Shown: positions 4,212 through 45,486, counted from the stretch's first letter. The stretch is 64,000 nucleotides of DNA from a candidate division WS6 bacterium GW2011_GWF2_39_15 (GCA_000993565.1 LBWK01000002.1:4121-68120); one strand, 5' to 3'. Made by a program: numbers and translations. The notes: generated by a model from the sequence alone, not told the origin.

Positions 4212-4301
4212 TGGCGGAGAGGACAGGATTCGAACCTGCGGTACATTTTCATGTACGAACGCTTTCCAAGCGTTTCCTTTCGACCACTCAGGCACCTCTC
4301 C
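4212..4301 (-). tRNA. tRNA-Ser (anticodon GGA), 90 nt with long variable arm
   Basis: Reverse complement reads GGAGAGGTGCCTGAGTGGTCGAAAGGAAACGCTTGGAAAGCGTTCGTACATGAAAATGTACCGCAGGTTCGAATCCTGTCCTCTCCGCCA. Anticodon loop TTGGAAA; long extra arm; T-arm GGTTCGAATCC; encoded CCA. Confidence 0.85.
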
Positions 4302-4352: not shown

Positions 4353-6377
4353 CTAGTTGAATATCTCTTTAACCGTTATTAATATTCTTCCCTGTCTTTC
4401 CGGGAAGTATCTTAAAAATTCAGGGAAGTATTTAGGAGAAAACTCAACCTCTGTAGCTTTATCAGTATACTTCTTTGCTTTTAGTATCTTGCTCCCGTCC
4501 TTCCAGTTCTTACCCTTTATCTCTTTTATTATCTCATTTTTGTCTATTTTAGGCTTTACTTCTCCTTTTGCGACTACTTTAATCTTGATGCTGTTGCCTT
4601 TTACTTCTTCAACAGTGATCTCTTTCTGAATATTTTCATCCAATTCAAGATTAATATCCCCTTCCGTTTCAAAAAGATTTTGGTCTTGCGCCGATTTAGT
4701 TAATACTTCGTCCATTTTCGCTTCAATCTCTCCTTTTTTGAAATACATTGCGTTTCCTTTCATCTCAATTGTAACATTGACTACCTCAGCTTCGGCTCCG
4801 ACCGGAATATCCGATTTAGGGTTTCCATCAATGGCTGTTTTTAGTGTTGATGTGATTATTTCCCACCCGTTTTCCGTCCTACCGGCCAGTTCATCTTTTA
4901 ACTCCTTCTCTGTGCCTGTCTTAAGGCTTTTGACAATTTTATCCATGTCTGATTGAGAAAATACAGTATATTCTTCCTTCGATCCTCCAGTAAAGGCTCC
5001 GGTATTTTCCGCACTAAGCTCAGTGCTTGGATTATATCCTGTTACTGTGAACGCATTCCCTCCTGCCAGGTTATACTCTTCCCCTACCAGTGCCGCTCTA
5101 ACTGCGACATTCTCCTTGATGAAGAGTCCGCCCTCTCCTATTGTTACATCATTGGAAATTTCGTATTTAAGACCTCCTGATGATGTGAGTATTGTTCCGG
5201 CACTTAGTGTTACTGTAGGTTTTTCAGGAGATACACCCCAGTATTTTAGAGTGACAACCCCTTCCGCTTTATTTCCCCTGAATGCTTTACCTGTTGGAGT
5301 TGCCGTCCCTGCAGCCGTTTTACTCGCTTCCTCTTTCTTTACAGGAACAATACTATTTTCGTAATTAAACTCATTGGCTTTAATGTCACCATTAAAAATC
5401 TTTTCAACTGAAACGGGCTTACTCTCTATATATATCTTGGCTTTTACAAGTGGTGTCAGTTCGTAAATGAGCCATAAAGTTATAACAAGAGCTGCAAAGA
5501 GAGGTGCGAGAACCCTTATCAAGATCTTTTTTGAAGTGGAACTTGCAAGACCTGTGCTTAGTTTCTTAAAGAATCCTAAAATTGGTGACCCGTTTTGTGG
5601 CAGTCCTTTGACTTTTACTGGTGTAATTTTTTGGGCGGGGGTAATCTCAGCAGGCTCTTCATCTGTTGGCAAGGTGGTCATAAAAGCAATATCCCTTCCT
5701 ATTAGTGAAGGGTTTCCGGTTTTAATTGGTTTCTTTACAGGCTGGGTTAATGGCCTTGCTTCTTGAATATCCTCATCAAGGACTAATTCGAAGCCATCTT
5801 GCTGAATAACTTTTCCGGCTTTATTGTCCATGGAGTTTCGAGACCTCTCTATCGTTTCCTCGATTTTCTTTTGAAAGTCTGACTTCTCCTTTTCTACAAA
5901 TACTTCATTGCTGGGCGGTTTTATGGATCTCTCCTCTTTATTTTCAATTACCTCTTCGATTGGTTTATATCTGATATTTGAGCTATGAAGTTTTTCATCT
6001 CTTCTCTTTGTTCTTCTATTAAGACCCTTCTCTGATTCGTTCCAGTACTCGTCTAATATTGTTCCGGTTGCTTCAGTAACAGTCATTCCCGCCTCTTTGG
6101 CATTGCGTACTCCTACAGGGTTTTGTATAACTTGTGCTATTAAAGCCTTTCCTTTCTCGTCTGCACTGTCTAAAAGGACTTTCAGGTTTATAGGGCTGAT
6201 TAATATGTCGGTGGGGTCAGTAAAAGTGAGGATTATTTTGTCGGCATCTGATGAGTTAATCTTATTTATTATATCAATCAAATCATCATCTCTGCTTACA
6301 ACAAACTTCTCAATCTCTGATTTTATTTCTCTTACGTTTTCTCTATTCATTTTTCGTATTAAACTTCTTACTGTCAC
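4353..6377 (-). CDS. Large bitopic membrane protein: ~300-aa cytoplasmic N-domain, single TM, ~330-aa Gly/Thr-rich extracytoplasmic domain; unknown function
   Basis: The ORF-table start at 6377 is GTG; an ATG at 6350 lies 2 nt past the stop of the upstream actin-like gene. TM helix 'ILIRVLAPLFAALVITLWLIY'. C-terminal beta-rich repeats (GGLKYEISNDVTIGEGG..., AGGNAFTVTGYN...). Confidence 0.5.
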   Translation of the reverse strand: MTVRSLIRKMNRENVREIKSEIEKFVVSRDDDLIDIINKINSSDADKIILTFTDPTDILISPINLKVLLDSADEKGKALIAQVIQNPVGVRNAKEAGMTVTEATGTILDEYWNESEKGLNRRTKRRDEKLHSSNIRYKPIEEVIENKEERSIKPPSNEVFVEKEKSDFQKKIEETIERSRNSMDNKAGKVIQQDGFELVLDEDIQEARPLTQPVKKPIKTGNPSLIGRDIAFMTTLPTDEEPAEITPAQKITPVKVKGLPQNGSPILGFFKKLSTGLASSTSKKILIRVLAPLFAALVITLWLIYELTPLVKAKIYIESKPVSVEKIFNGDIKANEFNYENSIVPVKKEEASKTAAGTATPTGKAFRGNKAEGVVTLKYWGVSPEKPTVTLSAGTILTSSGGLKYEISNDVTIGEGGLFIKENVAVRAALVGEEYNLAGGNAFTVTGYNPSTELSAENTGAFTGGSKEEYTVFSQSDMDKIVKSLKTGTEKELKDELAGRTENGWEIITSTLKTAIDGNPKSDIPVGAEAEVVNVTIEMKGNAMYFKKGEIEAKMDEVLTKSAQDQNLFETEGDINLELDENIQKEITVEEVKGNSIKIKVVAKGEVKPKIDKNEIIKEIKGKNWKDGSKILKAKKYTDKATEVEFSPKYFPEFLRYFPERQGRILITVKEIFN

Positions 6378-7596
6378 TTATTTTATCAAGGGCAAAGAGA
6401 GTTAGCGATGCCGGAGTTATGTCATAGGTATATTTTAGCTCTTTGCTTTCGTCGGTGATTCTTGAAAGTCTGTTAGGGTATATAATTTCTATTCTAGGAA
6501 CTGAGGCAAAAGGTAGTAATTTAGTCCATGGGAATTCCATCATCACTTCTTTGATTTCAGGGAGGAGTGATCCTCCTCCGCAAAGATAGATCCTGCTCGG
6601 GAATGAGTCTCGTTCCTCAGCCGCTTCCAAAGCGGACTTAAGCGTTTTCATCCATACTTGTGCAGTTGGGTATGTAACTTTTTTCACCTGGCGTTCCAGT
6701 TTGCTATCCAATGTCTTTTCTGCGTATTTGATTTTTCGCAGTTCTGCATGTCTATAGTCTAGATTCAGTTCTTTAGCTATCTGTTTTGTAAATACACGTC
6801 CTCCAAATGCGAACATTTGAGTATCTACAACGCTTCCTCTTTGGACTACCGCAACATCAGTTGTGCCTCCTCCTATGTCTACAAATATCCCGGAAAACTC
6901 CTTGGCTCTTGCTCCCTGAAATGCTCTTGCGACGGCAAATGGTTGTGAGACAATTCCTAAAAGGTTTATCGAGAGGGACTTTGATACATTCTGTAGAGCC
7001 GAAGTATATGTTTTTGGAGCGAATGAAGCATAGAAATATAGTTTAACATCTTTGCCTCGGAATCCGACGAGTGAATCGACACTCATCCCCCCTATTTCCA
7101 TCCCGGTTATTGTTACATGAAGAATATCTATATCATCGTTTACCAGTCCCGTTCTCTTGGCTAGGTCCTCTTTCCCTGATTCGAGTATTTTATTGTGGAT
7201 TCTTGATATGATCTCAGCCTGCTCTTTTGGAGTGACCTCTTGTTCATGCTTCTGCTCTCTCTCGTAGTTCACAATTATTGAAACGCCTTGTATATACTCA
7301 CCCGCAATTCCCATCACGACATGTTTCGGGTGTCTATCAACGTCTATTCCATCCATGATCTCTCTCATTGCCAGTCGGCAGTTTTCCAGAACCGTATTTA
7401 GGTTCGTAATAATCCCTTTGTCCATAGCATTTTGCTGCTGCTGTATACGAGATACTTTTTCAACAATAATTTCCCCCTCTTTTATGGTAAAGAGGATGGC
7501 TTTTAGAACCTCAGTCCCGATATCAAGGGCAACTATTCTTTCGCCCGGTTGAATTTTTTGTTGTGATTTTTTGAACAGATTAGGCAGTGTAATCAT
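6343..7596 (-). CDS. Actin-like ATPase of the FtsA/PilM family
   Basis: 'IVALDIGTEVLKA' phosphate-1, 'FVDIGGGTTDVAV' phosphate-2, 'YLCGGGSLLP' adenosine motif. N-terminal 'LFKKSQQ' resembles PilM; length 417 aa fits FtsA. Confidence 0.65.
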   Translation of the reverse strand: MITLPNLFKKSQQKIQPGERIVALDIGTEVLKAILFTIKEGEIIVEKVSRIQQQQNAMDKGIITNLNTVLENCRLAMREIMDGIDVDRHPKHVVMGIAGEYIQGVSIIVNYEREQKHEQEVTPKEQAEIISRIHNKILESGKEDLAKRTGLVNDDIDILHVTITGMEIGGMSVDSLVGFRGKDVKLYFYASFAPKTYTSALQNVSKSLSINLLGIVSQPFAVARAFQGARAKEFSGIFVDIGGGTTDVAVVQRGSVVDTQMFAFGGRVFTKQIAKELNLDYRHAELRKIKYAEKTLDSKLERQVKKVTYPTAQVWMKTLKSALEAAEERDSFPSRIYLCGGGSLLPEIKEVMMEFPWTKLLPFASVPRIEIIYPNRLSRITDESKELKYTYDITPASLTLFALDKISDSKKFNTKNE

Positions 7597-7610
7597 ATGT
7601 AATTAGTATA

Positions 7611-9188
7611 TCATTTTTTTATTGAGACTTTCTCTGTAGCGTAGTGGTTCTTCTTAATGGTTTTACCAATCATCATCTCTGTCTGTGCCTGGACAAAAGG
7701 TATAAAGGCAAAGGTTAACATGTTTACTGTTACTAAAAGGGTTTCAACCATATCCAGGAACTTTCTGAAGAGACCCCACTCTTTAGGAAGGGGGGAAAGT
7801 TTGAGTCTGATTATATATATGGGGATGTTAAAAAACATAACCGAGGTTAGTATCAGGCTCATTATTTTGGGTAGATTGTAGGAGGCTGAACTGTATTGGA
7901 ACTCCGGGCTTACTAATGTGAGAATCGGAAGACCAAGCGTGAGGAGGTAGACGACAGTTCGGAAAATGAGCCTATCGTCAAACATAGCCATTGTTATTTT
8001 GATCCTTTTTGATAGAGGGATATTCTTATTCTTATACATTCCGGCAAAAGTCATTGGGAAAACTATTCCTCCCCATCCCCATCTGAGCTGTTGTTTGTAT
8101 AGAGACTTATGAGTTTTAACATAGGTATCATTTTCAACTGCGTCATTGTATGTTGGGATGTATACCTCTTCACCTGCAAAATCTCCGTTGAAACGAATGA
8201 GAGCATTGTAGTAGAAAGCGGTGTCGTCGTTTGGAATTTGTGGATCCCAGTACCCTACATCTTCAACGGTTTGGAGATTTGCGACATATGAGGACCAGGT
8301 CTCATTTATCTTTTTATGGAATACCCACTGGTTTAGTACTGCTAATGTTAAGAAGTTGGAAAAGGTTCGGATCAAGGTCGGGACACGGTATAGATTATTA
8401 TTAAAGGTATGAATACCTGTTGCGTAGAACTTTCTTAAGGGATTAATATCCGTTAAATATTTGTAGGTAATAGCGGATAAATATTTAGGATGAGGTCGTA
8501 AATCATTATCGCAGGTAATAAGAAGGTACTCATCAAGCCGTTCCTCTCTTTTTCTCACTCTTAAGCTGAAGTGTCTGCCTGCCCAGTTTATATTAGGGTT
8601 TTTAACTCCTGCTACTTCACCCTCAATATCAGCAGGGTGATAATATTTCACAACCTCCCTGAAATACTTTCCGTACTTTTCTTCAAGAATTGCTATGGTT
8701 TCAGAACTTTCCTCTTTGTATTTGCCTTCCAGCGCGAATACAAGAGATAGTTTCTGAGCCCCTACATCCTGCTTGCTCCACGCTTTTATTGAAGGCTCAA
8801 GCACTTCCAAGCCCTCTTTTACCACAGGACAGATAAAGACATATTTTACCTCTTTATACGGAAGTTGTTCCTTTTTCATTCTTTCTATCCAGTCTATCTT
8901 CATCTCCCTTCCCATTCTCATGTATCCGAGTGTAATTGCGACTACAAACTTAAGACCGCGAAGGGCCCAATATACGGTAAGGAAGGCTATATATATGACG
9001 AGGATTTCCGGGTATCCGGTTAACCCCACAACAAAAGGAAGAAGCAGGAAAAACCAAGTCACTAAACCGGGAATAGCTTCGAATATTTTGGTATACCATC
9101 TGGGAACATTTAACGGGTATCCATTAAATCGGTCTTTGAGTTTAACGTCTTCAGGATTTAATGTCTCTTGCGGAGTCCCTACGTCCAT
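7611..9188 (-). CDS. Processive family-2 glycosyltransferase (cellulose/chitin/hyaluronan-synthase-like) with N- and C-terminal TM segments
   Basis: 'ITCDNDL' (DxD), 'IPNDDTAFYY' (third Asp) and 'YKQQLRWGWGG' (QxxRW) in the order expected for processive GT2 synthases. TM helices flank the catalytic domain. Confidence 0.65.
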   Translation of the reverse strand: MDVGTPQETLNPEDVKLKDRFNGYPLNVPRWYTKIFEAIPGLVTWFFLLLPFVVGLTGYPEILVIYIAFLTVYWALRGLKFVVAITLGYMRMGREMKIDWIERMKKEQLPYKEVKYVFICPVVKEGLEVLEPSIKAWSKQDVGAQKLSLVFALEGKYKEESSETIAILEEKYGKYFREVVKYYHPADIEGEVAGVKNPNINWAGRHFSLRVRKREERLDEYLLITCDNDLRPHPKYLSAITYKYLTDINPLRKFYATGIHTFNNNLYRVPTLIRTFSNFLTLAVLNQWVFHKKINETWSSYVANLQTVEDVGYWDPQIPNDDTAFYYNALIRFNGDFAGEEVYIPTYNDAVENDTYVKTHKSLYKQQLRWGWGGIVFPMTFAGMYKNKNIPLSKRIKITMAMFDDRLIFRTVVYLLTLGLPILTLVSPEFQYSSASYNLPKIMSLILTSVMFFNIPIYIIRLKLSPLPKEWGLFRKFLDMVETLLVTVNMLTFAFIPFVQAQTEMMIGKTIKKNHYATEKVSIKK

Positions 9189-9192
9189 TTCT

Positions 9193-10863
9193 TTAAATGA
9201 TCACAGGTAATATTATCGGCTCTCTTTCAGTCTTTTTTCTTATATATCTGGCGATGTTTCTCTCCAATTCATCATAAAGGAGCTGTTCAGTTACTTTTCT
9301 GGAGTTTCTCATCTCCTGCAGCCATTTCCTGTGCACGTCCACAACAATATTCTCAATCTCTTTTAGAAGATTCTGGGAAGTTTTCATGTATACAAATCCT
9401 CTTGAGATAAATCTGGGACGCCCAAGAAGCTGTTTGGTCTTCTGACTAATATTTAAAATAACGCAGAACATACCGTACTGAGAAAGCTGAGCCCTATCTT
9501 TAAGGACTATATCTCCAATGTCACCTACTCCCAGTCCGTCTATAAGTATAGGTTTGGATTCTACCTTGATTCCTCTCTTTACGTTTGAGTTGTTTAATGT
9601 CCAAGTTTGTCCGTCTTCAGTTAATAGAATGTCGTTAGGATTATGTCCCCAATTTATATAGTTCTTTTTGCTCTGGTATCTAAAGGTTAAACTCCCGTGA
9701 ATTGGCATAATATACTTGGGATTAAGCATGCTGTTGAGTATTTTCATATCCTCCTGCAGACCATGGCCGCTTGAGTGTACACTTGCTTCCGCGTTGTTGA
9801 TCAGATCCATCCCCTGTCGAATAAGGAGGTCTGTCATTCTCCCTATCTTCTCTTCGTTACCGGGAACTTCAGATGCTGACATTATTACCAAATCTCCAGG
9901 CTTTCCTTTAATATAGAGGTGTTCTCCAAGTGCAATTCTGTTTAATGCTGCATATCTTTCACCCTGACTTCCTGTGCTTAGTATCATTATCTGATCATCA
10001 GGATAGTTCTTTATCTGTTTTTCTGTAATGAATATGCTGTCGTTAACATCTATGTACTTGTAGTATCGTGCCACTCTCATTGTTGTGTGCAGGCTTCGCC
10101 CGGATAGAACCACCTTTCTGTTGGTTTCCTGTGCAATTTTGATCATAGAGGCAAGTCGGGTTACAAGTGAAGCAAATGCCGCTACTATAATTCTTCCTTT
10201 ATGTTTCTGGATTATTTCTCTGGTTGTCTGTACTGCGGTTTGTTCGGGGAGAGCTCTTCCTTCTCTATATACGTTTGTACTGTCATAGAGTGCAAGGTCA
10301 ACCTTCCCTTTTATACTGTTTAAGGCCTCTATGTCCATTAACTCCTCGTCTATCTTGTAGTCTCCTGAGAAGAATATTGACCCTTCCGGAGATTTTACAA
10401 ATATCGAGAATGAATCGGGGATGCTGTGGGTTGTAGTTATGTACTGTATATCAAAGTCTCCAAGCTTGAATTGAGTCGTGTCTTTAATTTCTACAAACTT
10501 GACTCGTCTATCCAGTCCTTTTTCAATGAGCTTTTCCTTCATTATTGCTATAGCGAACGGTCCTGCATATATAGGAGGGAACCCTAAATCCTCAATAATG
10601 TATGGAATCGCCCCTATGTGATCCAAGTGTCCATGGGTTATGAGAATAGCTTTGATATTCTTTCTTTTTGCTTTTAGCTCTTTGATACTTGGAATGAGGT
10701 AATCAATGCCGTACATTTCTTGACCGGGGAATGAAAATCCTGCGTCTATAACCAGTATTTGATTATTGTATTCAATATAATTACAGTTTCTTCCACCTGT
10801 TTCGTTTGTACCAGAAAGGGTACAGAGGGTTAAGCCTCCATCTTTTCGTTTAAAATAATTCAT
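9193..10863 (-). CDS. rnj: Ribonuclease J (metallo-beta-lactamase/beta-CASP RNase)
   Basis: 'ILITHGHLDHIGA' HxHxDH motif; beta-CASP and C-terminal domain; 556 aa. Confidence 0.85.
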   Translation of the reverse strand: MNYFKRKDGGLTLCTLSGTNETGGRNCNYIEYNNQILVIDAGFSFPGQEMYGIDYLIPSIKELKAKRKNIKAILITHGHLDHIGAIPYIIEDLGFPPIYAGPFAIAIMKEKLIEKGLDRRVKFVEIKDTTQFKLGDFDIQYITTTHSIPDSFSIFVKSPEGSIFFSGDYKIDEELMDIEALNSIKGKVDLALYDSTNVYREGRALPEQTAVQTTREIIQKHKGRIIVAAFASLVTRLASMIKIAQETNRKVVLSGRSLHTTMRVARYYKYIDVNDSIFITEKQIKNYPDDQIMILSTGSQGERYAALNRIALGEHLYIKGKPGDLVIMSASEVPGNEEKIGRMTDLLIRQGMDLINNAEASVHSSGHGLQEDMKILNSMLNPKYIMPIHGSLTFRYQSKKNYINWGHNPNDILLTEDGQTWTLNNSNVKRGIKVESKPILIDGLGVGDIGDIVLKDRAQLSQYGMFCVILNISQKTKQLLGRPRFISRGFVYMKTSQNLLKEIENIVVDVHRKWLQEMRNSRKVTEQLLYDELERNIARYIRKKTEREPIILPVII

Positions 10864-10907
10864 GGGAGTATTATAGCATTAAAAGAGTCTCTATAAAGTC
10901 TCAACTA

Positions 10908-11480
10908 TTATTTATTACCAATCGTAATAAGGAATTTTATTATCTGCAGCAGGGTTGTTTTGTATTTTCCTACCTCATATTGTTCTCTTAGATTTTTGAA
11001 TTGTTGAGGTTTGTCGGAGGTATTTTGATATACAAGACGCTTTAATAATTGGGCAACTATTTTAGAGTGATCAGGATTTCCCTTGAAACTCCACCCCATG
11101 ACTTCTATAAAGTCCATAAGTCCTAGATAATGTCCTTCATTAATTTGCTCAATAGCTTGACTACCGTTGGCAACAAATTGCTCCGAATACAAAATAGTTT
11201 CGGCAGGATTAAAAGGTATGTATACCCAAAAGTGAGTTTTATTATTAAAGCCCAATTTATCAACATAGTTAGTGGTTGCACGGTCTTGTTTAGTAGCAAA
11301 TACTAAAGTTCCCAAATACTGACCTTGAGAAATATTTGCTATTTGTTCTATTCTAAGACCTTTGCCAGCGGTTCTAGATATACTATCGGCATTTTCACCT
11401 ATTAGTATTTCCAGATCGTGTTCGTCGAGTACACGTAACTCGTTATCTGAGGGGCCAGTTTTATTATTAAAAAAGCTCAT
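10908..11480 (-). CDS. Hypothetical protein (no recognisable domain)
   Basis: 190-aa ORF, good coding appearance; co-oriented, with 40-50 nt gaps to neighbours. Confidence 0.4.
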   Translation of the reverse strand: MSFFNNKTGPSDNELRVLDEHDLEILIGENADSISRTAGKGLRIEQIANISQGQYLGTLVFATKQDRATTNYVDKLGFNNKTHFWVYIPFNPAETILYSEQFVANGSQAIEQINEGHYLGLMDFIEVMGWSFKGNPDHSKIVAQLLKRLVYQNTSDKPQQFKNLREQYEVGKYKTTLLQIIKFLITIGNK

Positions 11481-11529
11481 ATCGAAGAAATCTTAAAATT
11501 ATTAATTAACATCTCGTATTAGTATCTAA

Positions 11530-12144
11530 TTATGGTTTAGCTGTAAGCCCTAGACTCAAAGCTAAATGAATTAGCCTGACTTGATCATCATGAGAAATTG
11601 TTTTCGGAAGTACATCATGTACTCCCATATATCCCGTTGAATTATCCTTCTTCCCGCTATCCACGAAGTCTGAGAGAATATTTGCAAGCACCAGTAGTAG
11701 TTGATTTATAGATTCTGGTTGTTCAGTGATTCTTCCATGAATTTCTTCTGCCGTATCAAGAACAATTTGGTTTTTATATCTATCAACAAAAGTTAGCTGT
11801 GGGAAGTTAAAGGCCATGGTGGTTAAGTTTCTTTTATGAACCTTCTCTACTGTTGCATCAAAATAATTGGGCATTTGATTAAAATAGAACATCGTAGATC
11901 CGAGTATTTCATTAATGGCGTACTCGCCGGACTTTAAATTCCATACACGATTTTGAAACACCCCACTTGAAAACCCATATGTCTCCCTATAGAAAAGTCC
12001 GAAAACCATATTTGCGAATAGTGTGGTATTAAAGTCATTTAACACCTCAGGCGACTCAGCAAGCTTGACAGCTAGATCAGCTACCTTGTCAGAATTGAAC
12101 CCTTCTCTTATCTTTGCGACATCAAATTGTTTGGTATCTCCCAT
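11530..12144 (-). CDS. Hypothetical protein (no recognisable domain)
   Basis: 204-aa ORF, co-directional with the rnj block. Confidence 0.4.
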   Translation of the reverse strand: MGDTKQFDVAKIREGFNSDKVADLAVKLAESPEVLNDFNTTLFANMVFGLFYRETYGFSSGVFQNRVWNLKSGEYAINEILGSTMFYFNQMPNYFDATVEKVHKRNLTTMAFNFPQLTFVDRYKNQIVLDTAEEIHGRITEQPESINQLLLVLANILSDFVDSGKKDNSTGYMGVHDVLPKTISHDDQVRLIHLALSLGLTAKP

Positions 12145-12209: not shown

Positions 12210-13169
12210 ATGACATATCCAAAAGTTACTGTCAAAAGTGGAAAAGATATTGATTCTATTAACTATCTTCATACTTATGAAGCGGCAAAAGCAGCCTTTT
12301 TTCAGTCCAAAAAGTACATCATTCTCCCCTATATTCCTATGCAGAAAAGAATAGCGGGAAAAACAATATTTCTTCCAAGAATATCTAGAAAAATGGGAGC
12401 CGGTATAAAATATACGGAGTTGATTGACTATATGAAGTTTCCCAAGATCAACGAAAACAAGTATAGGGAATATATAACCCGAAACTTTAAGGCATTCTGG
12501 AAAGACCTCATTAAAATACTGGGAGAAGAAAAACTGTCGCGGATCAAAAATATTGAGGTATGGATAACTCATATAGGATCCGGCGGGCGGGCTTTTACAG
12601 AGATGGGTGATAACAGTAGGATAGTTGTAATTATGAGGAAGGATATGATTCTCCAGCAAATCTTTTCTTTAGTTATAATGGAGGTACTCCCCTATATTGG
12701 CTACAAAGAATCATATACATGGGAAGAGACCACGGCTATAAGAGAATGGCTAGTAGAATCTACTGTCTTGAATAAATACTTCCCTGTGCATACTCCGATG
12801 CTTGATTCACTAAGAGAGAGGAAGCAGCAGGCGAAGTATTTGCTTGATAGTGATAAATATCTTCAAGAAATTGGAATAAAAGGATATGTAAAAATCCTTA
12901 ATAATGAGGTCTTAGTTGATAATACTAAGATTGTATTGGGAGAAAAGGAAACCTTACTTTTCTCCCTTCTGCTTTCTCGGAAGGGTGGTCTGGTTGATTA
13001 CGATATAATATTCAAAGAGGTATGGGGAAGTAATATTGAAAAGTTCTCTTTATATGCAATAACAAAACTTGTTGAGAGAATAAGGAAGAAACTTCTAAAT
13101 GCAGGTATTTCGGAGGATATAATTCATACGTATAAAGGTAAAGGATATTATATTGGTAGCAGTTTTTAA
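12210..13169 (+). CDS. Transcriptional regulator with C-terminal OmpR/PhoB-type winged-helix DNA-binding domain and non-receiver N-terminal domain
   Basis: C-terminus 'LGEKETLLFSLLLSRKGGLVDYDIIFKEVWGSN...LYAITKLVERIRKKLL...IHTYKGKGYYI' matches trans_reg_C. The N-terminal ~200 aa has no Asp-pocket receiver features. Confidence 0.6.
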   Translation: MTYPKVTVKSGKDIDSINYLHTYEAAKAAFFQSKKYIILPYIPMQKRIAGKTIFLPRISRKMGAGIKYTELIDYMKFPKINENKYREYITRNFKAFWKDLIKILGEEKLSRIKNIEVWITHIGSGGRAFTEMGDNSRIVVIMRKDMILQQIFSLVIMEVLPYIGYKESYTWEETTAIREWLVESTVLNKYFPVHTPMLDSLRERKQQAKYLLDSDKYLQEIGIKGYVKILNNEVLVDNTKIVLGEKETLLFSLLLSRKGGLVDYDIIFKEVWGSNIEKFSLYAITKLVERIRKKLLNAGISEDIIHTYKGKGYYIGSSF

Positions 13170-17242: not shown

Positions 17243-17365
17243 ATGAATAAAAAGAAATGGAAAAAAGTTGGTAAAATAGCATTAATCCTTGCTCTTGCAG
17301 GTGTCACTACTTATTTAATTTCAAGACAAATGGGTAAAAAGAATGAAGAAAGTAAAAAGAAGTAG
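17243..17365 (+). CDS. Possible 40-aa single-TM micro-protein
   Basis: MNKKKWKKVGKIALILALAGVTTYLISRQMGKKNEESKKK; overlaps next ORF by 23 nt. Confidence 0.25.
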   Translation: MNKKKWKKVGKIALILALAGVTTYLISRQMGKKNEESKKK

Positions 17366-17567
17366 TGTAGTTGAACCTGAATTTTACGGAACTGCTACTG
17401 TCGGAACAAAAGGTCAAATTGTTATCCCAAATGAAGTTAGAAAGAGATATGATATAAAAACAGGTGATAAACTGGTCATTTTTAGTGGTGAGGGCGGTGT
17501 GATAGCAATCATGAAGAGTGATAAACTGAATGATCTTCTTAAAGGAATATCTGCTATTGCAAAGTAG
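17343..17567 (+). CDS. AbrB/MazE/SpoVT-family swapped-hairpin DNA-binding protein
   Basis: 'TVGTKGQIVIPNEVRKRYDIKTGDKLVI' matches the SpoVT/AbrB looped-hinge-helix fold; 74 aa. Confidence 0.55.
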   Translation: MKKVKRSSVVEPEFYGTATVGTKGQIVIPNEVRKRYDIKTGDKLVIFSGEGGVIAIMKSDKLNDLLKGISAIAK

Positions 17568-17671
17568 GATTTACATCTTTTTATGTCTTTTATATAATCA
17601 ATTATCGGAAGTGAAAGTCAGAAATTCTCGGCGCTACTGCGGGGTATAAGTCGTAGTATTATATGCTAGGA

Positions 17672-18130
17672 CTAACGCGACGATGGAGGGGTGCCGGCCT
17701 CCCTCTTCCACAACAGTTTGAACTTATTCAGCTCCTTTTGTTTAACTCTGAATCCTGTTAAAACATAATTTCCTCTATTTTTCTTTTGTGATAGCTGTAA
17801 AACAATTATGTAATCTCCCTCAGGGAGTAATTTGTGCAATACTATATTTCCGTGTCTGTTTGAGGAATTTTTATAAATAGCGTCTGGGGAAATGATTATT
17901 TGGCTTAAATATTGGAGCAGATACTCGTACTCCCGAGCCGTTCTCTTATCATAGAGATGTTTCAAACCAAATGTCGAAATGTATACTCTTTTGGTTTTAA
18001 TCTTTAGAAAATCCAAAGGCAGTTTAAATGTAGTGAGAAATATTCTCTTCCGTACACAAGAAGACTCTTTCGGAGTAAGAAAGATATGTTGTTTATGGAT
18101 ATTGAATAGTTTATGCTTCACTCCTACCAA
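17672..18130 (-). CDS. Hypothetical protein
   Basis: 152-aa ORF convergent with the AbrB-like gene; no motif recognised. Confidence 0.3.
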   Translation of the reverse strand: MVGVKHKLFNIHKQHIFLTPKESSCVRKRIFLTTFKLPLDFLKIKTKRVYISTFGLKHLYDKRTAREYEYLLQYLSQIIISPDAIYKNSSNRHGNIVLHKLLPEGDYIIVLQLSQKKNRGNYVLTGFRVKQKELNKFKLLWKREAGTPPSSR

Positions 18131-20366: not shown

Positions 20367-20933
20367 ATGTCAGTCAAAAGCAAAAAAACAATTAACCTGT
20401 TGGACTCAATAGGAACCCCAAGTGATACATGGACGGCGATTTACCTTTGGGTCTTTAACATCGGAAGATACATAATGCTAGGCATCGAAATCGTTGTTCT
20501 GGCAGTTTTCTTCTCAAGGTTCGTACTTGATAAACAGAACCATGATTTAACAGAAGAGATAAATGATAAAACAGTTATTCTGTCTAACAAGGCTTTTAGA
20601 GACGATGAGGTTAGGTATCGGAACTTGCAAACCCTGCTTTCCGATGTAACGACATTAAGTGAAGACCAGCCCCTTAATTCCGAACAGATCTCTGCTTTGA
20701 CAAGTGCTGTTCCTAATGGATTAACACTTGATAAATTTGCTTTTTCAGATACCAAAGTTTCCATGTCCCTGCTTGGTAGTAAGCTTAATGTGATAAAGGA
20801 TTATGAGTTTTCACTTAGACAGAATCCTAGGTATAAAAATGTTAATTTCACGGTTTCCAGATCAGGTATTAACAAAACCGATTTCGATGTATCAGTATCG
20901 TTTGCGTTAAACTTTGAAGAGGATCAGAAATAA
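20367..20933 (+). CDS. PilN-like bitopic protein (type IV pilus/competence assembly)
   Basis: Short cytoplasmic N-term, one TM helix, coiled-coil periplasmic region; size and topology fit PilN. Call is by architecture only. Confidence 0.4.
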   Translation: MSVKSKKTINLLDSIGTPSDTWTAIYLWVFNIGRYIMLGIEIVVLAVFFSRFVLDKQNHDLTEEINDKTVILSNKAFRDDEVRYRNLQTLLSDVTTLSEDQPLNSEQISALTSAVPNGLTLDKFAFSDTKVSMSLLGSKLNVIKDYEFSLRQNPRYKNVNFTVSRSGINKTDFDVSVSFALNFEEDQK

Positions 20934-21532
20934 TGGCAAGTTCAAAGGGGATAGACTACTTAAAAATTATTAACGGTTCTGTTCAGAGTAAAACGTATAG
21001 TTTTGTTATCTTTACTGTGATTGTTGTTATAGTACTTTTGATTGGTGCCGTTAGGCCGACACTTCTTACGATTACTAAGATAAATAAAGATATCAAAGAG
21101 AAAAAGCTTATAAACACTCAGCTTGATACGAAACTTCAGAATCTTTCAACACTAAGTAACCAATACGGTAGTATTAAGAGTGATGCTGATACTCTGCCTC
21201 TAATGTTTCCGACACAGGGTAATTTCAGTCTGTTCATGTCTAATATTGAGGAAATATCAAAAGCTAACGGATTTACCCTAAATGGAATCAATTTTAATAA
21301 GAATGATGATTTTATAATGAAGTTGAAAGTGCTAAAGCCATGGAGTGCGAGAATTACCGTTTCAGGTAAAAAGGCTAATATTATAAAGTTGTTAAAAGCT
21401 TATGAATCAATGCCAATGTACCCTGTTGTTAATCAGCTATCATATAGCAATAAGCAGGATGAGAGTAATCAGACAACGTTTAGTATTAATCTAATCGTTT
21501 TTCGAATTGATGATCCAAATTTTTATAATTAG
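20933..21532 (+). CDS. PilO-like bitopic protein
   Basis: Start overlaps the stop of the upstream gene (ATAATGG); N-terminal TM, coiled coil, C-terminal alpha/beta domain; 199 aa. Confidence 0.4.
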   Translation: MASSKGIDYLKIINGSVQSKTYSFVIFTVIVVIVLLIGAVRPTLLTITKINKDIKEKKLINTQLDTKLQNLSTLSNQYGSIKSDADTLPLMFPTQGNFSLFMSNIEEISKANGFTLNGINFNKNDDFIMKLKVLKPWSARITVSGKKANIIKLLKAYESMPMYPVVNQLSYSNKQDESNQTTFSINLIVFRIDDPNFYN

Positions 21533-23255: not shown

Positions 23256-26200
23256 TTATTTTGTATTCCAAATAATATTGTATTTCAGATCCGAAGTGAG
23301 TTTGGTCTGGCTTAGTAACTGATTTAGTACACCGTCCATCGTGTCATTATTCACAACTGCCCAGGTATCCGGGTATGTAATGTTGATTGAGGTTGGGTCA
23401 TCAAACGTTCCGGGTTGTTTATAGATGTTGAGTGCAAGACTTATATCCTCATTATTAACTGTAATAGGTTTGTAAGTACTGTTTTTGCCTATATTGTATT
23501 TAATTTCAAAATTTCTGGATGATTGAATTGGTACATTAAGCCATCCGCCGATAACCTTGTACCCTTTTTCTAAATATATCTGGTAATCGCTGTCACTAAA
23601 TCCTTTAACGGATTTTATCTGAGCATTTTCCGGCATATAGACTCTAAGGTAGTTTGAATAATCTCCCTGAGGATATATCTTGGAAGTTGCAGTGTTTCTT
23701 ATTGCAAGTTGATATGTATAATCAACGCTTTCGGTATCGAAAATATCTATATTTATGGATCTGCTCCTCTCAATCTTATTATTTACCTTATTAGCTCCCC
23801 AGTTCCATTCAATTGAGAACGGAGCGGACTTGTAATCATTGAGAAGTGTTCCTGACCATCCATTTTCACTTAGATATTCAAAAGCATCGCGGTTTTTAAG
23901 GTATATATTTAAATGCTTCTGTTCTAGTGAATCCATCACTACCGTACTAATTTTTGAATATTCAGGGACTTCAGCTGTTAGAAGTTTCTGGAGGGATGTG
24001 TTTGCCAGGTTAGCAAGAAATGGAGCTTTAAGACTTTCCCCCGGCTTAAACTCTTTATGAAGAGCCGATATCTTGTCATCAAGATTATCTGCAGTAATTG
24101 GCTGAGTTTCTCCCGGAATTATTACCTCGCCCCATACTCCGAGAAGACTTTTCAGAACTTCCGTGTCTATGGTTATAACTCCGTCAATTTTAACTCCCGG
24201 GTCAATTTCGTTGAGTAGTTTTTCATCTAGATCCGACACCCCTTTAAGATCCGGATCCCAGTTAGATAGTGAAAAGGTTTGAAGATCAACCCCAAGGGCA
24301 CGTTTCATCGAGAGAGGTGTCGACATCTTTATATCTGCATTGATAAGTTCACCGTCAATATTGTAGATATCATCTACTTTTAGTTCTCTTATCTGTCCCC
24401 CTTCAAATGCAACAAGCGCATAGCTTGACGGCCACCCTCCGGTGCTTCTTAGTTCCGCAGGATTCTGAAGCAGTATTAGATATCGTACCCGTTGTTCAAT
24501 TCCCAATATGTCAGGAAGAAATGTGACAACTTTTTCCAATGGAATTATCTGTTCTCCTAGTTGGTCATTATATGATTTTAACTGGGCGATATAGTTTTGT
24601 AGTGATACAGGAAAAGTATTTGTCTTTACTGTATCAATTAAATCTGAAGCTATATTTAAATCGTAGACACCTTTTTGGAGGAGGGATCTGTTCTGTTTAA
24701 GTGACACAAGATAGTCTCGATACTCACGGCTTGATGATGGAAGAGTATTTTGAAAGTTCAAAGCGGGTTTGAAGTTCGTGAGATACATGGCAAGCGGCTC
24801 AACTGCGGAAGCGACATCCTTTGCACCACTTACTGCGTACTGTGAGGCAAATATCAGCTGAGATACATTATCGTAGGTGTCCTGTGCTCCTGTAACGGCA
24901 AACATCCACTTTGTTCTGCCAAAAGCCCCGCTTACCTTGTCAATATACTCCTCGGATTTCTCCAAGCTTTTTTCTGCTTTGGTTAGTTCCAGTTGAGAGG
25001 CTTGTTCCTTGGCTGCCATCAGGTTTTTATAGGCAAGATATCCTCCTGCTGATACTGTGAGTATTGGGTAGAGCACAAAGATGATGAAGAGGAATGCAGC
25101 AATCCCTATTATAACCAGTTGAGCAATTTTCCCTTTGGTCAGGCTACCTTTGAACTTTTCCCAGCTGTTAGTGGAGGATCTTGTTAATAGCTTGAATGGA
25201 CGGGATAGAATATCAAAAAAGTCGCCAAGCGGAGTCTTTACACTTTTCACCCTGATAGTTTCTTCGGATTTCTCTTGAGGGGCTGGTTTCTCAAGGCTCT
25301 TTTTTATTATTTGACCTGTTTTAGGGTACAGCGTTTCTATTGTCTCTACTATTGACTGCTCTAATGTAATAGCCTGTTTCCAGCCGTAGTTGCTGGCATT
25401 TGGAGCCGGTGTGTAGTGTTCAAAGCTTATGTATTCCTCTTTATTGGTTGCCGGTCCGAATTTAATCTCGCTTATTTCGGGATTTATCTCCAGAAGCTTG
25501 TAGGCGAGAGAGAGGGTAGTATAGTCGTGATTATTGGCAAGAGATATAACTTCCCCCTCCGTTTGAGAAGAGAAGGTGAGCTTAAGTATTCCGTATATAG
25601 CATCGTCGATATTGAGAAGGTAGTGAAGCTCAAGTCCTTCACCGGCAATTGTGATATATCCTCTGTTTGAGCTTTCAGAAATCATATCATTGAGTATGGG
25701 ATCCCGCAGGGTTTCGATTTCAGTACCAAGAAGTGTTCCCAGCCGGATTATTCTTGCGTTGAGCTTGGATTTATCCCTGTATTCCGCTGTCAAAGTCTCA
25801 CAATATTTCTGAAGCTCAATGGCTGAGTATGGTGACGGAGCAGATAGATTATTATTAAGAATATGGGCTGACAGCTGTTCGTTAAGCTTGATTGTTGTTA
25901 TCAGAGCAAACTTTGAATCGCTTTTCTGTGAAGCCTTCAAAGTGTGGTTCAGGTAATTGGACTCCTCCAAAAAATCTTTGCTAGAGAAGCTTCTTTGAAT
26001 ATTCAGGTATTCTTCAAGAATGTAGTATACATAATCAATTCTATTTATGGTTTTAAATAGGGACTCGATTCCAGTAAAGTCTATGAAGTCGGCTGTTCCG
26101 AGTTTTTTGAGCTCGGAAATATACTTTTTAGACTCCGAGTTGAAGTGGTCAACAATAATTACCTTTCCTCCTTGTTCAAGGAGTGTTTTAGCAAGCTTGA

Positions 26201-26276
26201 ATCCTAATGGATTTCCTCCATGGACTAGGAGGGAGACAGTAGTACTTAATTTTACGTCGCTATATTTGCTTGCCAT
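23256..26276 (-). CDS. 1006-aa fusion protein: N-terminal NAD(P)-binding Rossmann (epimerase/dehydratase-like) domain, single TM, ~600-aa extracytoplasmic domain
   Basis: 'VSLLVHGGNPLGFKLAKTLLEQGGKVIIVD' glycine-rich NAD-binding loop; TM 'IAQLVIIGIAAFLFIIFVLYPIL'; long C-terminal non-repetitive domain. Confidence 0.45.
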   Translation of the reverse strand: MASKYSDVKLSTTVSLLVHGGNPLGFKLAKTLLEQGGKVIIVDHFNSESKKYISELKKLGTADFIDFTGIESLFKTINRIDYVYYILEEYLNIQRSFSSKDFLEESNYLNHTLKASQKSDSKFALITTIKLNEQLSAHILNNNLSAPSPYSAIELQKYCETLTAEYRDKSKLNARIIRLGTLLGTEIETLRDPILNDMISESSNRGYITIAGEGLELHYLLNIDDAIYGILKLTFSSQTEGEVISLANNHDYTTLSLAYKLLEINPEISEIKFGPATNKEEYISFEHYTPAPNASNYGWKQAITLEQSIVETIETLYPKTGQIIKKSLEKPAPQEKSEETIRVKSVKTPLGDFFDILSRPFKLLTRSSTNSWEKFKGSLTKGKIAQLVIIGIAAFLFIIFVLYPILTVSAGGYLAYKNLMAAKEQASQLELTKAEKSLEKSEEYIDKVSGAFGRTKWMFAVTGAQDTYDNVSQLIFASQYAVSGAKDVASAVEPLAMYLTNFKPALNFQNTLPSSSREYRDYLVSLKQNRSLLQKGVYDLNIASDLIDTVKTNTFPVSLQNYIAQLKSYNDQLGEQIIPLEKVVTFLPDILGIEQRVRYLILLQNPAELRSTGGWPSSYALVAFEGGQIRELKVDDIYNIDGELINADIKMSTPLSMKRALGVDLQTFSLSNWDPDLKGVSDLDEKLLNEIDPGVKIDGVITIDTEVLKSLLGVWGEVIIPGETQPITADNLDDKISALHKEFKPGESLKAPFLANLANTSLQKLLTAEVPEYSKISTVVMDSLEQKHLNIYLKNRDAFEYLSENGWSGTLLNDYKSAPFSIEWNWGANKVNNKIERSRSINIDIFDTESVDYTYQLAIRNTATSKIYPQGDYSNYLRVYMPENAQIKSVKGFSDSDYQIYLEKGYKVIGGWLNVPIQSSRNFEIKYNIGKNSTYKPITVNNEDISLALNIYKQPGTFDDPTSINITYPDTWAVVNNDTMDGVLNQLLSQTKLTSDLKYNIIWNTK

Positions 26277-26914: not shown

Positions 26915-26956
26915 ATTTTGATTATATGCTAGCCAATACGCTATGTCTACAAGATA

Positions 26957-32975: not shown

Positions 32976-32989
32976 AATTACTTATATAT

Positions 32990-45482: not shown

Positions 45483-45486
45483 ATGC

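What the first reader, a model, noticed from the sequence alone, without database searches (positions are those of the whole stretch)
4353..10863. Tightly packed operon: RNase J / processive GT2 synthase / actin-like ATPase / bitopic giant protein
Four minus-strand genes sit with 4-nt and 14-nt gaps and a 2-nt gap or overlap. They are rnj, a QxxRW-type processive GT2 synthase, an FtsA/PilM-family actin-like ATPase, and a 674-aa protein with a 300-aa cytoplasmic domain, one TM and a Gly/Thr-rich outside domain. The actin-like gene is not next to ftsZ or pilNO (the PilN/PilO-like genes lie 13 kb away), so it is not in a canonical divisome or pilus context. A membrane polysaccharide synthase physically coupled to an actin-like ATPase and a bitopic partner would be an undescribed cytoskeleton-guided polymer synthesis or secretion module.
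Basis: partly seen in the sequence, partly recalled or inferred. Interest (0 to 1): 0.7.

Follow-up and report, generated by a model that had tools for sequence, protein, structure and literature searches.

The report
Actin-like ATPase plus baseplate-like membrane partner
The four tightly packed genes are real, but only the last two always stay together in relatives: an FtsA/PilM-like ATPase and a membrane protein whose outer half is shaped like a phage baseplate wedge. I found no description of this pair, and the sugar-polymer synthase next to it is only an occasional neighbour.

Summary
The window comes from candidate division WS6 (Dojkabacteria) bacterium GW2011_GWF2_39_15. All four minus-strand genes exist as described:
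- RNase J.
- A hyaluronan/cellulose-synthase-like GT2 with invariant DxD, DD and QQLRW motifs.
- An FtsA/PilM-branch actin-fold ATPase.
- A bitopic protein, more likely 665 aa than 674 aa.

Tight spacing is the norm in this genome, so it says nothing about coupling.

The two-gene pair is the evolutionary unit. In 74 of 74 informative species loci, and in seven different genomic contexts, the ATPase sits next to the bitopic protein. RNase J is a frequent neighbour. The GT2 lies beside the pair in only 5 of 69 species, all early-branching, plus one distant lineage where it is inverted. Elsewhere its orthologue sits among unrelated housekeeping genes or beside MreB.

The bitopic protein has a STAS-like cytoplasmic domain, a disordered linker, one TM helix and an ectodomain with the phage baseplate wedge fold (gp47/J). 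No tail genes are nearby.

One relative carries ftsQ-ftsA-ftsZ-ftsW right beside the pair, so the ATPase is a paralogue of FtsA, not FtsA itself.

The proposed "cytoskeleton-guided polysaccharide synthase" module is weakly supported. The conserved pair is the interesting result.

The parts
10870..10897 (-). Best sigma-70-like promoter match in the region (TTTATA-16-TATAAT with TG), 7 nt upstream of the rnj start
   Evidence: It scores 10 of 12. The number of such matches in the region is not above shuffles, so this is only suggestive.
9193..10863 (-). rnj: RNase J (metallo-beta-lactamase, beta-CASP and RNase J C-terminal domains). A frequent neighbour of the pair, not part of it.
   Evidence: TIGR00649, 477.7 bits against a cutoff of 400. 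It is directly upstream of the pair in 61 of 69 species loci. It is absent next to the pair in L005, L170 and L171.
7611..9188 (-). GT2: a membrane-integrated synthase of the hyaluronan/cellulose-synthase type. It has two N-terminal TM helices, a GT-A domain, an interface helix and C-terminal TM helices. It is an accessory neighbour whose position varies between lineages.
   Evidence: The AF2 model has pLDDT 88.9. Foldseek against the PDB gives 8sne, 7sp8 and 4p00 over the full length, with E about 1e-9.
8502..8510 (-). GT2 DxD motif (D227-N-D229)
   Evidence: D227 and D229 are invariant in 48 homologues.
8079..8093 (-). GT2 QQLRW motif (residues 366-370)
   Evidence: Q366, Q367, R369 and W370 are invariant. 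D321 and D322 of the N-D-D motif are also invariant.
6343..7596 (-). FtsA/PilM-branch actin-fold ATPase (417 aa), a paralogue distinct from canonical FtsA. First gene of the conserved pair.
   Evidence: hhalign to a canonical FtsA covers 333 columns at 97.9% probability, but to MreB only 77 columns. Identity across Dojkabacteria is 57-83%.
7561..7596 (-). Conserved N-terminal peptide of the ATPase (M-x-x-L-P-x-L/F followed by a basic cluster), a candidate membrane-binding or docking motif
   Evidence: L4 is invariant, and M1 and P5 are nearly invariant. The same pattern appears in the distant orthologues L167-L169. Its function is inferred.
6856..6879 (-). Phosphate-2 motif DIGGGTTD (residues 240-247). 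Phosphate-1 DIGT lies at 7513-7524.
   Evidence: D25, G27, T28, D240, G242-G244, T245, D247 and G340-G342 are all invariant. The nucleotide-binding site is therefore intact.
4353..6350 (-). Bitopic partner (665 aa), called BPJ in this report. Second gene of the conserved pair. Its start overlaps the ATPase stop by 8 nt.
   Evidence: The family has 2772 clusters (50% identity) at E <= 1e-30.
5979..6314 (-). BPJ cytoplasmic N-domain (residues 13-124), an alpha/beta STAS-like fold. It is the most conserved part of the protein and contains the ISPINLKVLL motif.
5586..5972 (-). BPJ disordered linker (residues 127-255), rich in Glu, Lys and Pro
   Evidence: pLDDT is below 50. Mean pairwise identity is 27%.
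5445..5537 (-). BPJ single transmembrane helix (residues 272-302)
4356..5444 (-). BPJ ectodomain (residues 303-665) with the fold of a phage or contractile-injection-system baseplate wedge protein (J/gp47/gp6 family)
4212..4301 (-). tRNA-Ser(GGA), immediately downstream. It marks the end of the protein-coding string.

Best explanation
The locus is a co-directional string of genes, probably transcribed together. It holds one true functional unit and two neighbours.

The unit is the last two genes. The first is an FtsA/PilM-branch actin-fold ATPase with an intact nucleotide site and a conserved hydrophobic-basic N-terminal peptide. The second is a bitopic membrane protein, called BPJ here. BPJ has a STAS-like cytoplasmic domain, a roughly 130-aa disordered linker, one TM helix and an ectodomain that is essentially a whole phage baseplate wedge protein (gp47/J fold).

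Inferred mechanism: the pair works like PilM-PilN, FtsA-FtsN or MreB-RodZ. The ATPase assembles on the inner face of the membrane by docking on BPJ's conserved cytoplasmic domain. The wedge-like ectodomain oligomerises on the outer face. Together they give a membrane-spanning platform at the cell surface of these wall-bearing, probably episymbiotic bacteria.

The GT2 is a separate hyaluronan/cellulose-synthase-like enzyme that makes an unknown surface polysaccharide. It was parked between rnj and the pair in early Dojkabacteria and moved elsewhere in the large derived clade. It is not an obligate component. rnj is a housekeeping neighbour.

Shown here: gene identities, protein folds, the strict linkage of the pair, the variable linkage of the GT2 and rnj, and paralogy to FtsA. 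Inferred: physical docking, oligomerisation and the cellular role.
For: 1. Linkage. The ATPase gene is directly upstream of BPJ in 74 of 74 species loci with room to see it. The pair also survives in seven different contexts:
- rnj-GT2-pair (the window, L003, L006, L086).
- rnj-pair (L001, L167).
- rnj, then a divergently oriented pair beside ftsW-ftsZ-ftsA-ftsQ (L168).
- rnj, an inverted GT2, then the pair (L169).
- alaS and heliorhodopsin, the pair, then ruvX and mltG (L005).
- The pair followed by groES-groEL (L170).
- The pair followed by serS (L171).
They span divergence down to 60% GroEL identity and 35% RNase J identity.

2. Start-stop overlap or near-abutment of the two genes in most loci.

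4. The cytoplasmic N-domain is the best conserved part of BPJ (47% mean identity, against 27% for the linker). The ATPase is more conserved still (62%). That fits a conserved cytoplasmic interface.

5. The ATPase has invariant phosphate-1, phosphate-2 and adenosine motifs. It aligns over 333 columns with a canonical FtsA, yet it coexists with that FtsA in L168.

6. The GT2's position floats. Tight spacing is the norm in this genome.
Against: - No direct evidence of a physical interaction. A multimer prediction could not be run.
- BPJ's oligomeric state is unknown. None of the usual wedge partners (gp46/I/TssG-like proteins, sheath, tube) is encoded nearby.
- GT2 adjacency persists through the whole early-branching grade and recurs, inverted, in L169. 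In the derived clade the GT2 often lies near another actin homologue, MreB. A looser functional tie to cytoskeletal proteins is therefore not excluded.
- In L168 the two genes of the pair are divergent, not co-transcribed.
- I could not check whether Dojkabacteria themselves carry a canonical ftsA or a dedicated pilM elsewhere in the genome.
Confidence: 0.55

Rival explanations
1. The GT2 synthase, the actin-like ATPase and the bitopic protein form one machine, in which the cytoskeletal ATPase positions or gates polysaccharide synthesis and secretion.
For: - The three genes abut (14-nt gap, 8-nt overlap) behind one promoter-like site.
- GT2 adjacency is retained in all early-branching Dojkabacteria on the ATPase tree, in complete genome CP129478 despite an inserted GIY-YIG gene, and in distant L169 with the GT2 inverted.
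- In 14 of 80 metagenome loci the relocated GT2 lies next to a PEGA protein and MreB, another actin homologue.
- The GT2 has a processive synthase fold.
Against: - Only 5 of 69 species loci have the GT2 beside the pair.
- In the derived clade all three genes persist but are unlinked. In HGW-Dojkabacteria-1 the GT2 lies at 688-706 kb and the pair at 42-60 kb of one contig.
- The commonest GT2 neighbours are a CCA-adding enzyme, a beta-CASP RNase and an eIF2B-like gene.
- The pair occurs with no GT2 nearby in L005, L167, L168, L170 and L171.
- valS and rnj are just as conserved as neighbours. Synteny here reflects slow rearrangement, not function.
- Tight spacing is the genome norm.
Confidence: 0.13
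2. The pair is a cell-division or cell-wall accessory. The ATPase would be a second FtsA-type membrane tether. BPJ would play an FtsQ/FtsN/DivIB-like role, linking cytoplasmic filaments to septal wall synthesis.
For: - The ATPase is closest to FtsA by NCBIfam (TIGR01174, E 2e-24), by profile search of the PDB (7q6f, E 1.3e-14) and by hhalign (97.9%).
- In L168 the pair lies directly beside ftsW-ftsZ-ftsA-ftsQ.
- Other contexts include mltG and a LysM-M23 peptidase (L005), VanY (L167) and mltG again (L171).
- The ATPase is very strongly conserved, which suggests a housekeeping role.
Against: - The FtsA score is half the family cutoff, and no SHS2_FTSA domain is detected.
- No C-terminal amphipathic helix is seen.
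- In 170 loci the pair is near ftsZ only once.
- A baseplate-wedge ectodomain has no precedent in divisome proteins.
Confidence: 0.17
3. The ATPase is the type IV pilus PilM of this organism, and BPJ is an extra, lineage-specific component of the pilus platform.
For: - The Pfam PilM_2 match is above its cutoff (41 bits against 27).
- The best single-sequence PDB hit is Myxococcus PilM.
- NCBI names several orthologues PilM.
- The window has an orphan PilN-like gene with an N-terminal TINLL motif and a PilO-like gene, with no pilM next to them.
- Type IV pili are widespread in CPR bacteria (PMC6744442).
Against: - TIGR01175 scores 25 bits against a cutoff of 133.
- The PilN/PilO-like genes are 13 kb away and never abut the pair in any locus.
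- BPJ shows no similarity to PilN or PilO (hhalign probability below 1%).
- The PilM family reported as enriched in CPR genomes and often co-localised with the other pilus genes is described as carrying a GspL domain (PMC6744442). No GspL-type family appeared among this ATPase's Pfam or NCBIfam hits.
- No pilB, pilC or pilT was found among the window genes scanned against Pfam, which were most but not all ORFs.
Confidence: 0.15

Closest known systems
PilM-PilN(-PilO) inner-membrane platform of type IV pili, and the fused equivalent GspL of type II secretion
   Same: An FtsA-like actin-fold ATPase is encoded immediately upstream of a bitopic membrane protein whose cytoplasmic end is expected to dock on it. 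The gene order, the overlap of the two genes and the Pfam PilM_2 match are alike.
   Different: PilN binds PilM through a short N-terminal INLLP peptide and has a small ferredoxin-like periplasmic domain. BPJ instead has a folded, roughly 110-aa STAS-like domain, a 130-aa linker and a 360-aa baseplate-wedge ectodomain, with no detectable PilN or PilO similarity. No pilus genes are adjacent.
FtsA with its bitopic divisome partners (FtsN, FtsQ/DivIB)
   Same: Among the structures and family models matched here, FtsA is the closest relative of the ATPase, apart from a near-tie with Myxococcus PilM in the PDB searches. The logic of a membrane-associated actin homologue coupled to a bitopic protein with a large outer domain is the same.
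   Different: The ATPase falls below the FtsA family cutoff. It lacks a detectable SHS2 domain and a C-terminal amphipathic helix, and it is not next to ftsZ. It coexists with a genuine ftsQ-ftsA-ftsZ cluster in L168.
MreB-RodZ
   Same: A cytoplasmic actin homologue bound by the folded cytoplasmic domain of a bitopic protein with a linker, a TM helix and an outer domain.
   Different: The ATPase aligns with MreB over only 77 columns. A separate RodZ-like gene exists in the window (32019-32975). MreB exists elsewhere in Dojkabacteria.
Baseplate wedge proteins of contractile tails (P2 gpJ, Mu gp47, T4 gp6, diffocin TRI-2, T6SS TssF; Pfam PF04865)
   Different: Here the fold is the extracellular part of a chromosomal bitopic membrane protein. 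It is fused to a STAS-like domain and paired with an actin-like ATPase. No sheath, tube, spike or gp46/gpI-type partner is encoded nearby. The gene lies among housekeeping genes near yidC, jag and, in relatives, dnaA. It is not in a prophage.
Class I hyaluronan synthase, BcsA, chitin synthase and NodC (membrane-integrated processive GT2 enzymes)
   Same: The GT2 matches Chlorella virus HAS, Xenopus HAS1 and BcsA over its full length. It has the DxD, DD and QxxRW motifs and TM helices on both sides of the GT-A domain.
   Different: Identity is only 10-15%, there is no sequence hit in the PDB, and Pfam is just under its cutoff. There is no PilZ domain or other regulatory domain. The product is unknown.

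Membership tests
RNase J (TIGR00649) | Metallo-beta-lactamase, beta-CASP and RNase J C-terminal domains; score above the family cutoff | tested here: met
   477.7 bits against a cutoff of 400. Pfam RNase_J_b_CASP at 2.6e-41 and RNase_J_C at 7.8e-23.
Processive membrane-integrated GT2 synthase (HAS/BcsA/Chs/NodC type) | GT-A domain with DxD, a second acidic D-D/E-D motif, and QxxRW | tested here: met
   D227, D229, D321, D322, Q366, Q367, R369 and W370 are invariant in 48 homologues. QQLRW is located.
Processive membrane-integrated GT2 synthase (HAS/BcsA/Chs/NodC type) | GT domain embedded between TM helices that form a channel; full-length structural match to solved synthases | tested here: met
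   AF2 pLDDT 88.9. Foldseek to 8sne, 7sp8, 8smn and 4p00 gives E 1e-9 to 5e-9 over 520-560 columns, with TM-scores of 0.40-0.50.
Processive membrane-integrated GT2 synthase (HAS/BcsA/Chs/NodC type) | Pfam Glyco_trans_2_3 above the gathering score | tested here: not met
   25.6 bits against 27 for this sequence. Many homologues carry a precomputed PF13632 hit.
Processive membrane-integrated GT2 synthase (HAS/BcsA/Chs/NodC type) | Makes and translocates a polymer | not testable with these tools
   This needs biochemistry.
Canonical FtsA | Score above the TIGR01174 cutoff; SHS2_FTSA (1C) domain detectable | tested here: not met
   86.4 bits against 175.85. There is no PF02491 hit, whereas the L168 FtsA has one.
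Canonical FtsA | Encoded in a ftsQ-ftsA-ftsZ context and is the genome's FtsZ tether | tested here: not met
   There is no ftsZ in the window. In L168 the orthologue coexists with a separate ftsQ-ftsA-ftsZ-ftsW cluster. FtsZ binding itself is not testable here.
Canonical FtsA | C-terminal amphipathic membrane-targeting helix | tested here: inconclusive
   The C-termini end in a conserved YDITPASL..FAYDK followed by a short polar tail, with no obvious amphipathic helix. A conserved hydrophobic-basic peptide sits at the N-terminus instead. This is sequence inspection only.
Type IV pilus PilM | Score above the TIGR01175 cutoff; adjacent pilN and pilO | tested here: not met
   25.2 bits against 133. 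Pfam PilM_2 is above its cutoff but covers only profile positions 184-295 of 340. The downstream gene is BPJ, not pilN. The PilN/PilO-like genes are 13 kb away.
FtsA/PilM branch of the actin/ASKHA superfamily | Phosphate-1, phosphate-2 and adenosine motifs; FtsA-type architecture over the full length | tested here: met
   DIGT, DIGGGTTD and CGGG are invariant. hhalign to an FtsA covers 333 columns at 97.9% probability. No structure was predicted for this protein.
Baseplate J / gp47 / gp6 wedge family (PF04865) | Wedge-protein fold | tested here: met
Baseplate J / gp47 / gp6 wedge family (PF04865) | Part of a contractile-tail or injection-system gene cluster (sheath, tube, spike, wedge partner) | tested here: not met
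   None of these appears within 10 kb in any locus examined.
STAS domain | STAS fold and sequence family | tested here: inconclusive

The most novel reading that the evidence does not exclude
The ATPase-BPJ pair is an undescribed envelope-spanning machine, found across Dojkabacteria and in several deeply diverged, unnamed relatives. A phage baseplate wedge protein was captured and fused to a membrane anchor and a STAS-like domain. It now forms an oligomeric platform on the cell surface that is assembled, positioned or powered by a cytoplasmic actin-like ATPase. The platform could serve host attachment, pilus or surface-layer organisation, or, in early-branching Dojkabacteria, export of the polymer made by the adjacent hyaluronan-synthase-like GT2.
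Probability: 0.25. Interest if true: 0.8.

Novelty: new variant of a known kind. Interest (0 to 1): 0.55.

Why it matters
Ultrasmall CPR/Patescibacteria bacteria have very few genes. A pair that is this conserved is therefore likely to matter for their cell biology. The ATPase is 57-83% identical across a class-level group. The partner family has 2772 clusters (at 50% identity) with E <= 1e-30.

The pair would add a new partner type to the recurring scheme of an actin homologue plus a bitopic adaptor (PilM-PilN, FtsA-FtsN, MreB-RodZ). It would also be a clear case of a phage baseplate wedge being reused as the outer domain of a cellular membrane protein, outside any contractile injection system.

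In compact genomes, tight spacing and local synteny do not show functional coupling. The polysaccharide synthase is at best a loosely associated neighbour.

Tried and rejected
1. BPJ as a PilN- or PilO-like protein. hhalign of the BPJ profile against the window's PilN- and PilO-like proteins gave probabilities below 1%. Rejected.

2. The ISPINLKVLL motif of BPJ as a PilN-type INLLP peptide that binds PilM. It lies inside a folded domain. In distant L168 it reads SRVGLKTL. Not supported.

3. Looking for ftsZ or a canonical ftsA in Dojkabacteria. The window has no FtsZ motif. In about 170 fetched loci only L168 has one. Whole genomes could not be read, so this stays open for Dojkabacteria themselves.

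4. A Foldseek search of AFDB50, to get the taxonomic spread of BPJ. The library was unavailable.

5. Naming the distant lineages L005, L167-L169 and L171. Cluster look-ups returned no names. A literature search for the assembly accession found nothing.

6. Literature searches for a cellular baseplate-J protein paired with FtsA or PilM in CPR bacteria. No description was found. The library covers open-access papers and preprints only.

7. Promoter and terminator scans. Counts were not above shuffles. Only the site upstream of rnj is noted.

8. Sequence search of the GT2 and BPJ against the PDB. There were no useful hits. Structure comparison was needed.

9. Tight spacing as evidence of coupling. 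Rejected after measuring the window-wide gap distribution.

Full report
**Source and observation**

The GT2 protein is 100% identical to UT34_C0002G0016 of candidate division WS6 (Dojkabacteria) bacterium GW2011_GWF2_39_15. Public contigs that carry it confirm the gene calls.

The four minus-strand ORFs are present:
- rnj (9193-10863) passes the RNase J family cutoff.
- The 525-aa protein (7611-9188) carries QQLRW and a near-threshold Glyco_trans_2_3 match.
- The 417-aa protein (6343-7596) matches the Pfam FtsA, PilM_2 and MreB models.
- The last ORF has no Pfam hit of its own.

The gaps are 4 nt and 14 nt. The last gene most likely starts at ATG 6350, which gives 665 aa and an ATGAATAG overlap. 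An independent gene call agrees. tRNA-Ser follows at 4212-4301.

Tight spacing is not special here. The median same-strand gap in the window is 15 nt, and 61% of gaps are 20 nt or less. The best promoter-like site lies just upstream of rnj, but such matches are not enriched over shuffles.

**The bitopic protein (BPJ)**

A search found 115 homologues, nearly all from Dojkabacteria, and many carry Pfam Baseplate_J. The AF2 model, built from 47 sequences (mean pLDDT 79.3), has four parts:
- A confident alpha/beta N-domain (residues 13-124).
- A disordered linker (127-255).
- One TM helix (272-298).
- A confident ectodomain (301-665).

The ectodomain is not notably Gly/Thr-rich. None of the loci examined encodes a sheath, tube or wedge partner nearby.

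**The ATPase**

All nucleotide-binding motifs are invariant. It aligns with a canonical FtsA over 333 columns at 97.9% probability, but with MreB over only 77 columns. It falls well below the FtsA and PilM family cutoffs. Profile search of the PDB cannot separate FtsA (1.3e-14) from PilM (1.6e-13).

A conserved hydrophobic-basic N-terminal peptide replaces the C-terminal amphipathic helix typical of FtsA.

Locus L168 is decisive. There the orthologue (43% identity) and BPJ lie next to ftsW, ftsZ, a 430-aa FtsA with an SHS2 domain, and ftsQ. That FtsA is only 27% identical to the window protein over 150 aa. The family is therefore a paralogue of FtsA.

**The GT2**

The AF2 model (pLDDT 88.9) matches Chlorella virus hyaluronan synthase, Xenopus HAS1, BcsA and yeast Chs1 over its full length. 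The DxD, DD and QQLRW motifs are invariant. TM helices flank the catalytic domain. The product is unknown.

**Synteny**

Seventy-eight species-representative loci were fetched with the BPJ profile and analysed by BLAST.
- All 74 loci with enough room have the ATPase gene directly upstream of BPJ.
- Of the 69 loci with upstream sequence, 61 have rnj abutting the pair.
- In 2 more, rnj is upstream with other DNA in between.
- 1 has neither rnj nor the GT2.
- Only 5 have the GT2 between rnj and the pair.

Complete genome CP129478 has rnj, the GT2, a GIY-YIG gene on the other strand, then the pair.

GT2 orthologues (44-57% identity) nevertheless occur throughout Dojkabacteria. In HGW-Dojkabacteria-1 the GT2 lies at 688-706 kb and the pair at 42-60 kb of the same contig.

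The 80 metagenome loci fetched with the GT2 profile give these contexts:
- 44 loci: the GT2 is followed by a 389-aa unknown protein, a CCA-adding enzyme, a beta-CASP RNase and an eIF2B-like gene.
- 14 loci: it lies beside a PEGA protein, MreB and MATCAP.
- About 5 loci: it lies next to the pair. Three more have rnj directly upstream of the GT2 but no ATPase gene or BPJ.

A neighbour-joining tree of the ATPase, rooted on L005, puts all GT2-adjacent loci in an early-branching grade and the rnj-adjacent loci in one large derived clade. The simplest history is an ancestral rnj-GT2-pair order with one relocation of the GT2.

Distant L169 (ATPase 50% identical, RNase J 35%) has an inverted GT2 homologue (33% identity, E 1.6e-90) beside the pair.

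**Breadth**

The BPJ profile finds 9934 clusters at E <= 1e-3, 7093 at E <= 1e-10 and 2772 at E <= 1e-30 among 1.84 billion representatives. Many of the listed matches are full length.

Further loci keep the pair in new surroundings:
- L167: rpsO, pnp, an AAA gene, rnj, then the pair.
- L170: a WS6 OLB21-like genome, with the pair followed by groES-groEL.
- L171: the pair followed by serS.
- L005: alaS and heliorhodopsin, the pair, then ruvX and mltG.

They span divergence down to 60% GroEL identity. I could not name the distant lineages.

**Interpretation**

The ATPase-BPJ pair is the functional unit. rnj is a habitual neighbour, and the GT2 is an ancestral but dispensable one.

By analogy with PilM-PilN, FtsA-FtsN and MreB-RodZ, I infer three things:
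- The ATPase docks on BPJ's conserved cytoplasmic domain. That domain is the best-conserved part of BPJ.
- The wedge-like ectodomain oligomerises outside the membrane.
- The role lies at the cell surface or envelope.

Division-related and pilus-related roles remain live rivals. The window's orphan PilN/PilO-like genes keep the pilus option open. BPJ itself shows no PilN or PilO similarity.

The open-access literature searched contains no description of this pair.

**Verdict**

The three-part "cytoskeleton-guided synthase" reading is only weakly supported. The conserved pair of an actin-like ATPase and a STAS-TM-baseplate-wedge protein is a new variant of the actin-plus-bitopic-adaptor theme and merits follow-up.

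Noticed in passing
window 20367-21532 (+): An orphan PilN-like gene (N-terminus KKTINLLD) and a PilO-like gene, both with weak Pfam support (E 0.007 and 0.004). No pilM, pilB or pilC is adjacent. Two small genes of similar size occupy the same position beside rpoD in relative L001.
   Followed up: partly
window 7561-7596 (-), ATPase residues 1-12: A conserved N-terminal peptide, M-x-x-L-P-F/N-L/F followed by Lys/Arg, precedes the actin fold. It is present even in distant orthologues (L167-L169). It could be a membrane-binding or self-docking motif, and it loosely resembles the PilN INLLP peptide.
   Followed up: partly
window 4212-4301 (-): tRNA-Ser(GGA), the only tRNA in the window, lies 51 nt downstream of the BPJ stop on the same strand.
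   Followed up: no
window 12210-13169 (+): A 319-aa protein with only an OmpR-type winged-helix domain (Trans_reg_C) at its C-terminus and no receiver domain. It is transcribed divergently from the h204-h190-rnj-GT2-ATPase-BPJ string. It is conserved in close relative L006 and is also called on the public contig that carries the window's own locus (L172).
   Followed up: no
window 10908-12144 (-): Two small genes (190 aa and 204 aa) with no family hit lie upstream of rnj on the same strand, with gaps of 44-49 nt. A weak homologue (28% identity) occupies the same place in L006 and L008.
   Followed up: no
window 32019-35173 (-): A RodZ-like protein (HTH_25, Glucodextran_B and RodZ_C) lies next to FtsK. 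MreB is not in the window but exists in other Dojkabacteria (L085).
   Followed up: no
window 23256-28198 (-): A likely surface-polysaccharide cluster: a 1006-aa fusion of an NAD-dependent epimerase with DUF4012, a PEGA-domain protein and a GT4 (MraY/WecA-like) transferase.
   Followed up: no
window 17343-18130: A PBECR3 (barnase/EndoU/colicin-like) nuclease gene (17672-18130, minus strand). A MazE-type antitoxin gene is called nearby on the other strand. This is probably a toxin-antitoxin pair.
   Followed up: no
L085 8001-13460, and 13 further metagenome loci (for example L094, L101, L116): In the derived Dojkabacteria clade the GT2 orthologue sits next to a 530-aa PEGA-domain protein (opposite strand), MreB and a MATCAP-family protein. 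This is a second recurrent adjacency of the synthase to an actin homologue.
   Followed up: partly
proteins P0328-P0349 and P0313: Some GT2 orthologues are ~795-aa proteins whose Pfam hits include additional GT2 families; in the loci the extra sequence lies upstream of the matched region. One cluster at 50% identity (55 members, 1.47-Mb contig) is labelled Methanobacteriaceae archaeon. That suggests either horizontal transfer or mis-binning.
   Followed up: no
L005 7775-8536 (-): A heliorhodopsin gene lies immediately upstream of the ATPase-BPJ pair in a distant relative.
   Followed up: no
L056 (record LNJE01000029.1): A BPJ homologue (33% identity) lies on a contig deposited as Candidatus Methanofastidiosum methylothiophilum. 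This is probably a Dojkabacteria contig mis-binned into an archaeal MAG.
   Followed up: no
window 44547-45593 (-): A second, smaller GT2 (348 aa; Glyco_tranf_2_3 at 74 bits, plus a Glyco_trans_2_3 match) elsewhere in the window.
   Followed up: no
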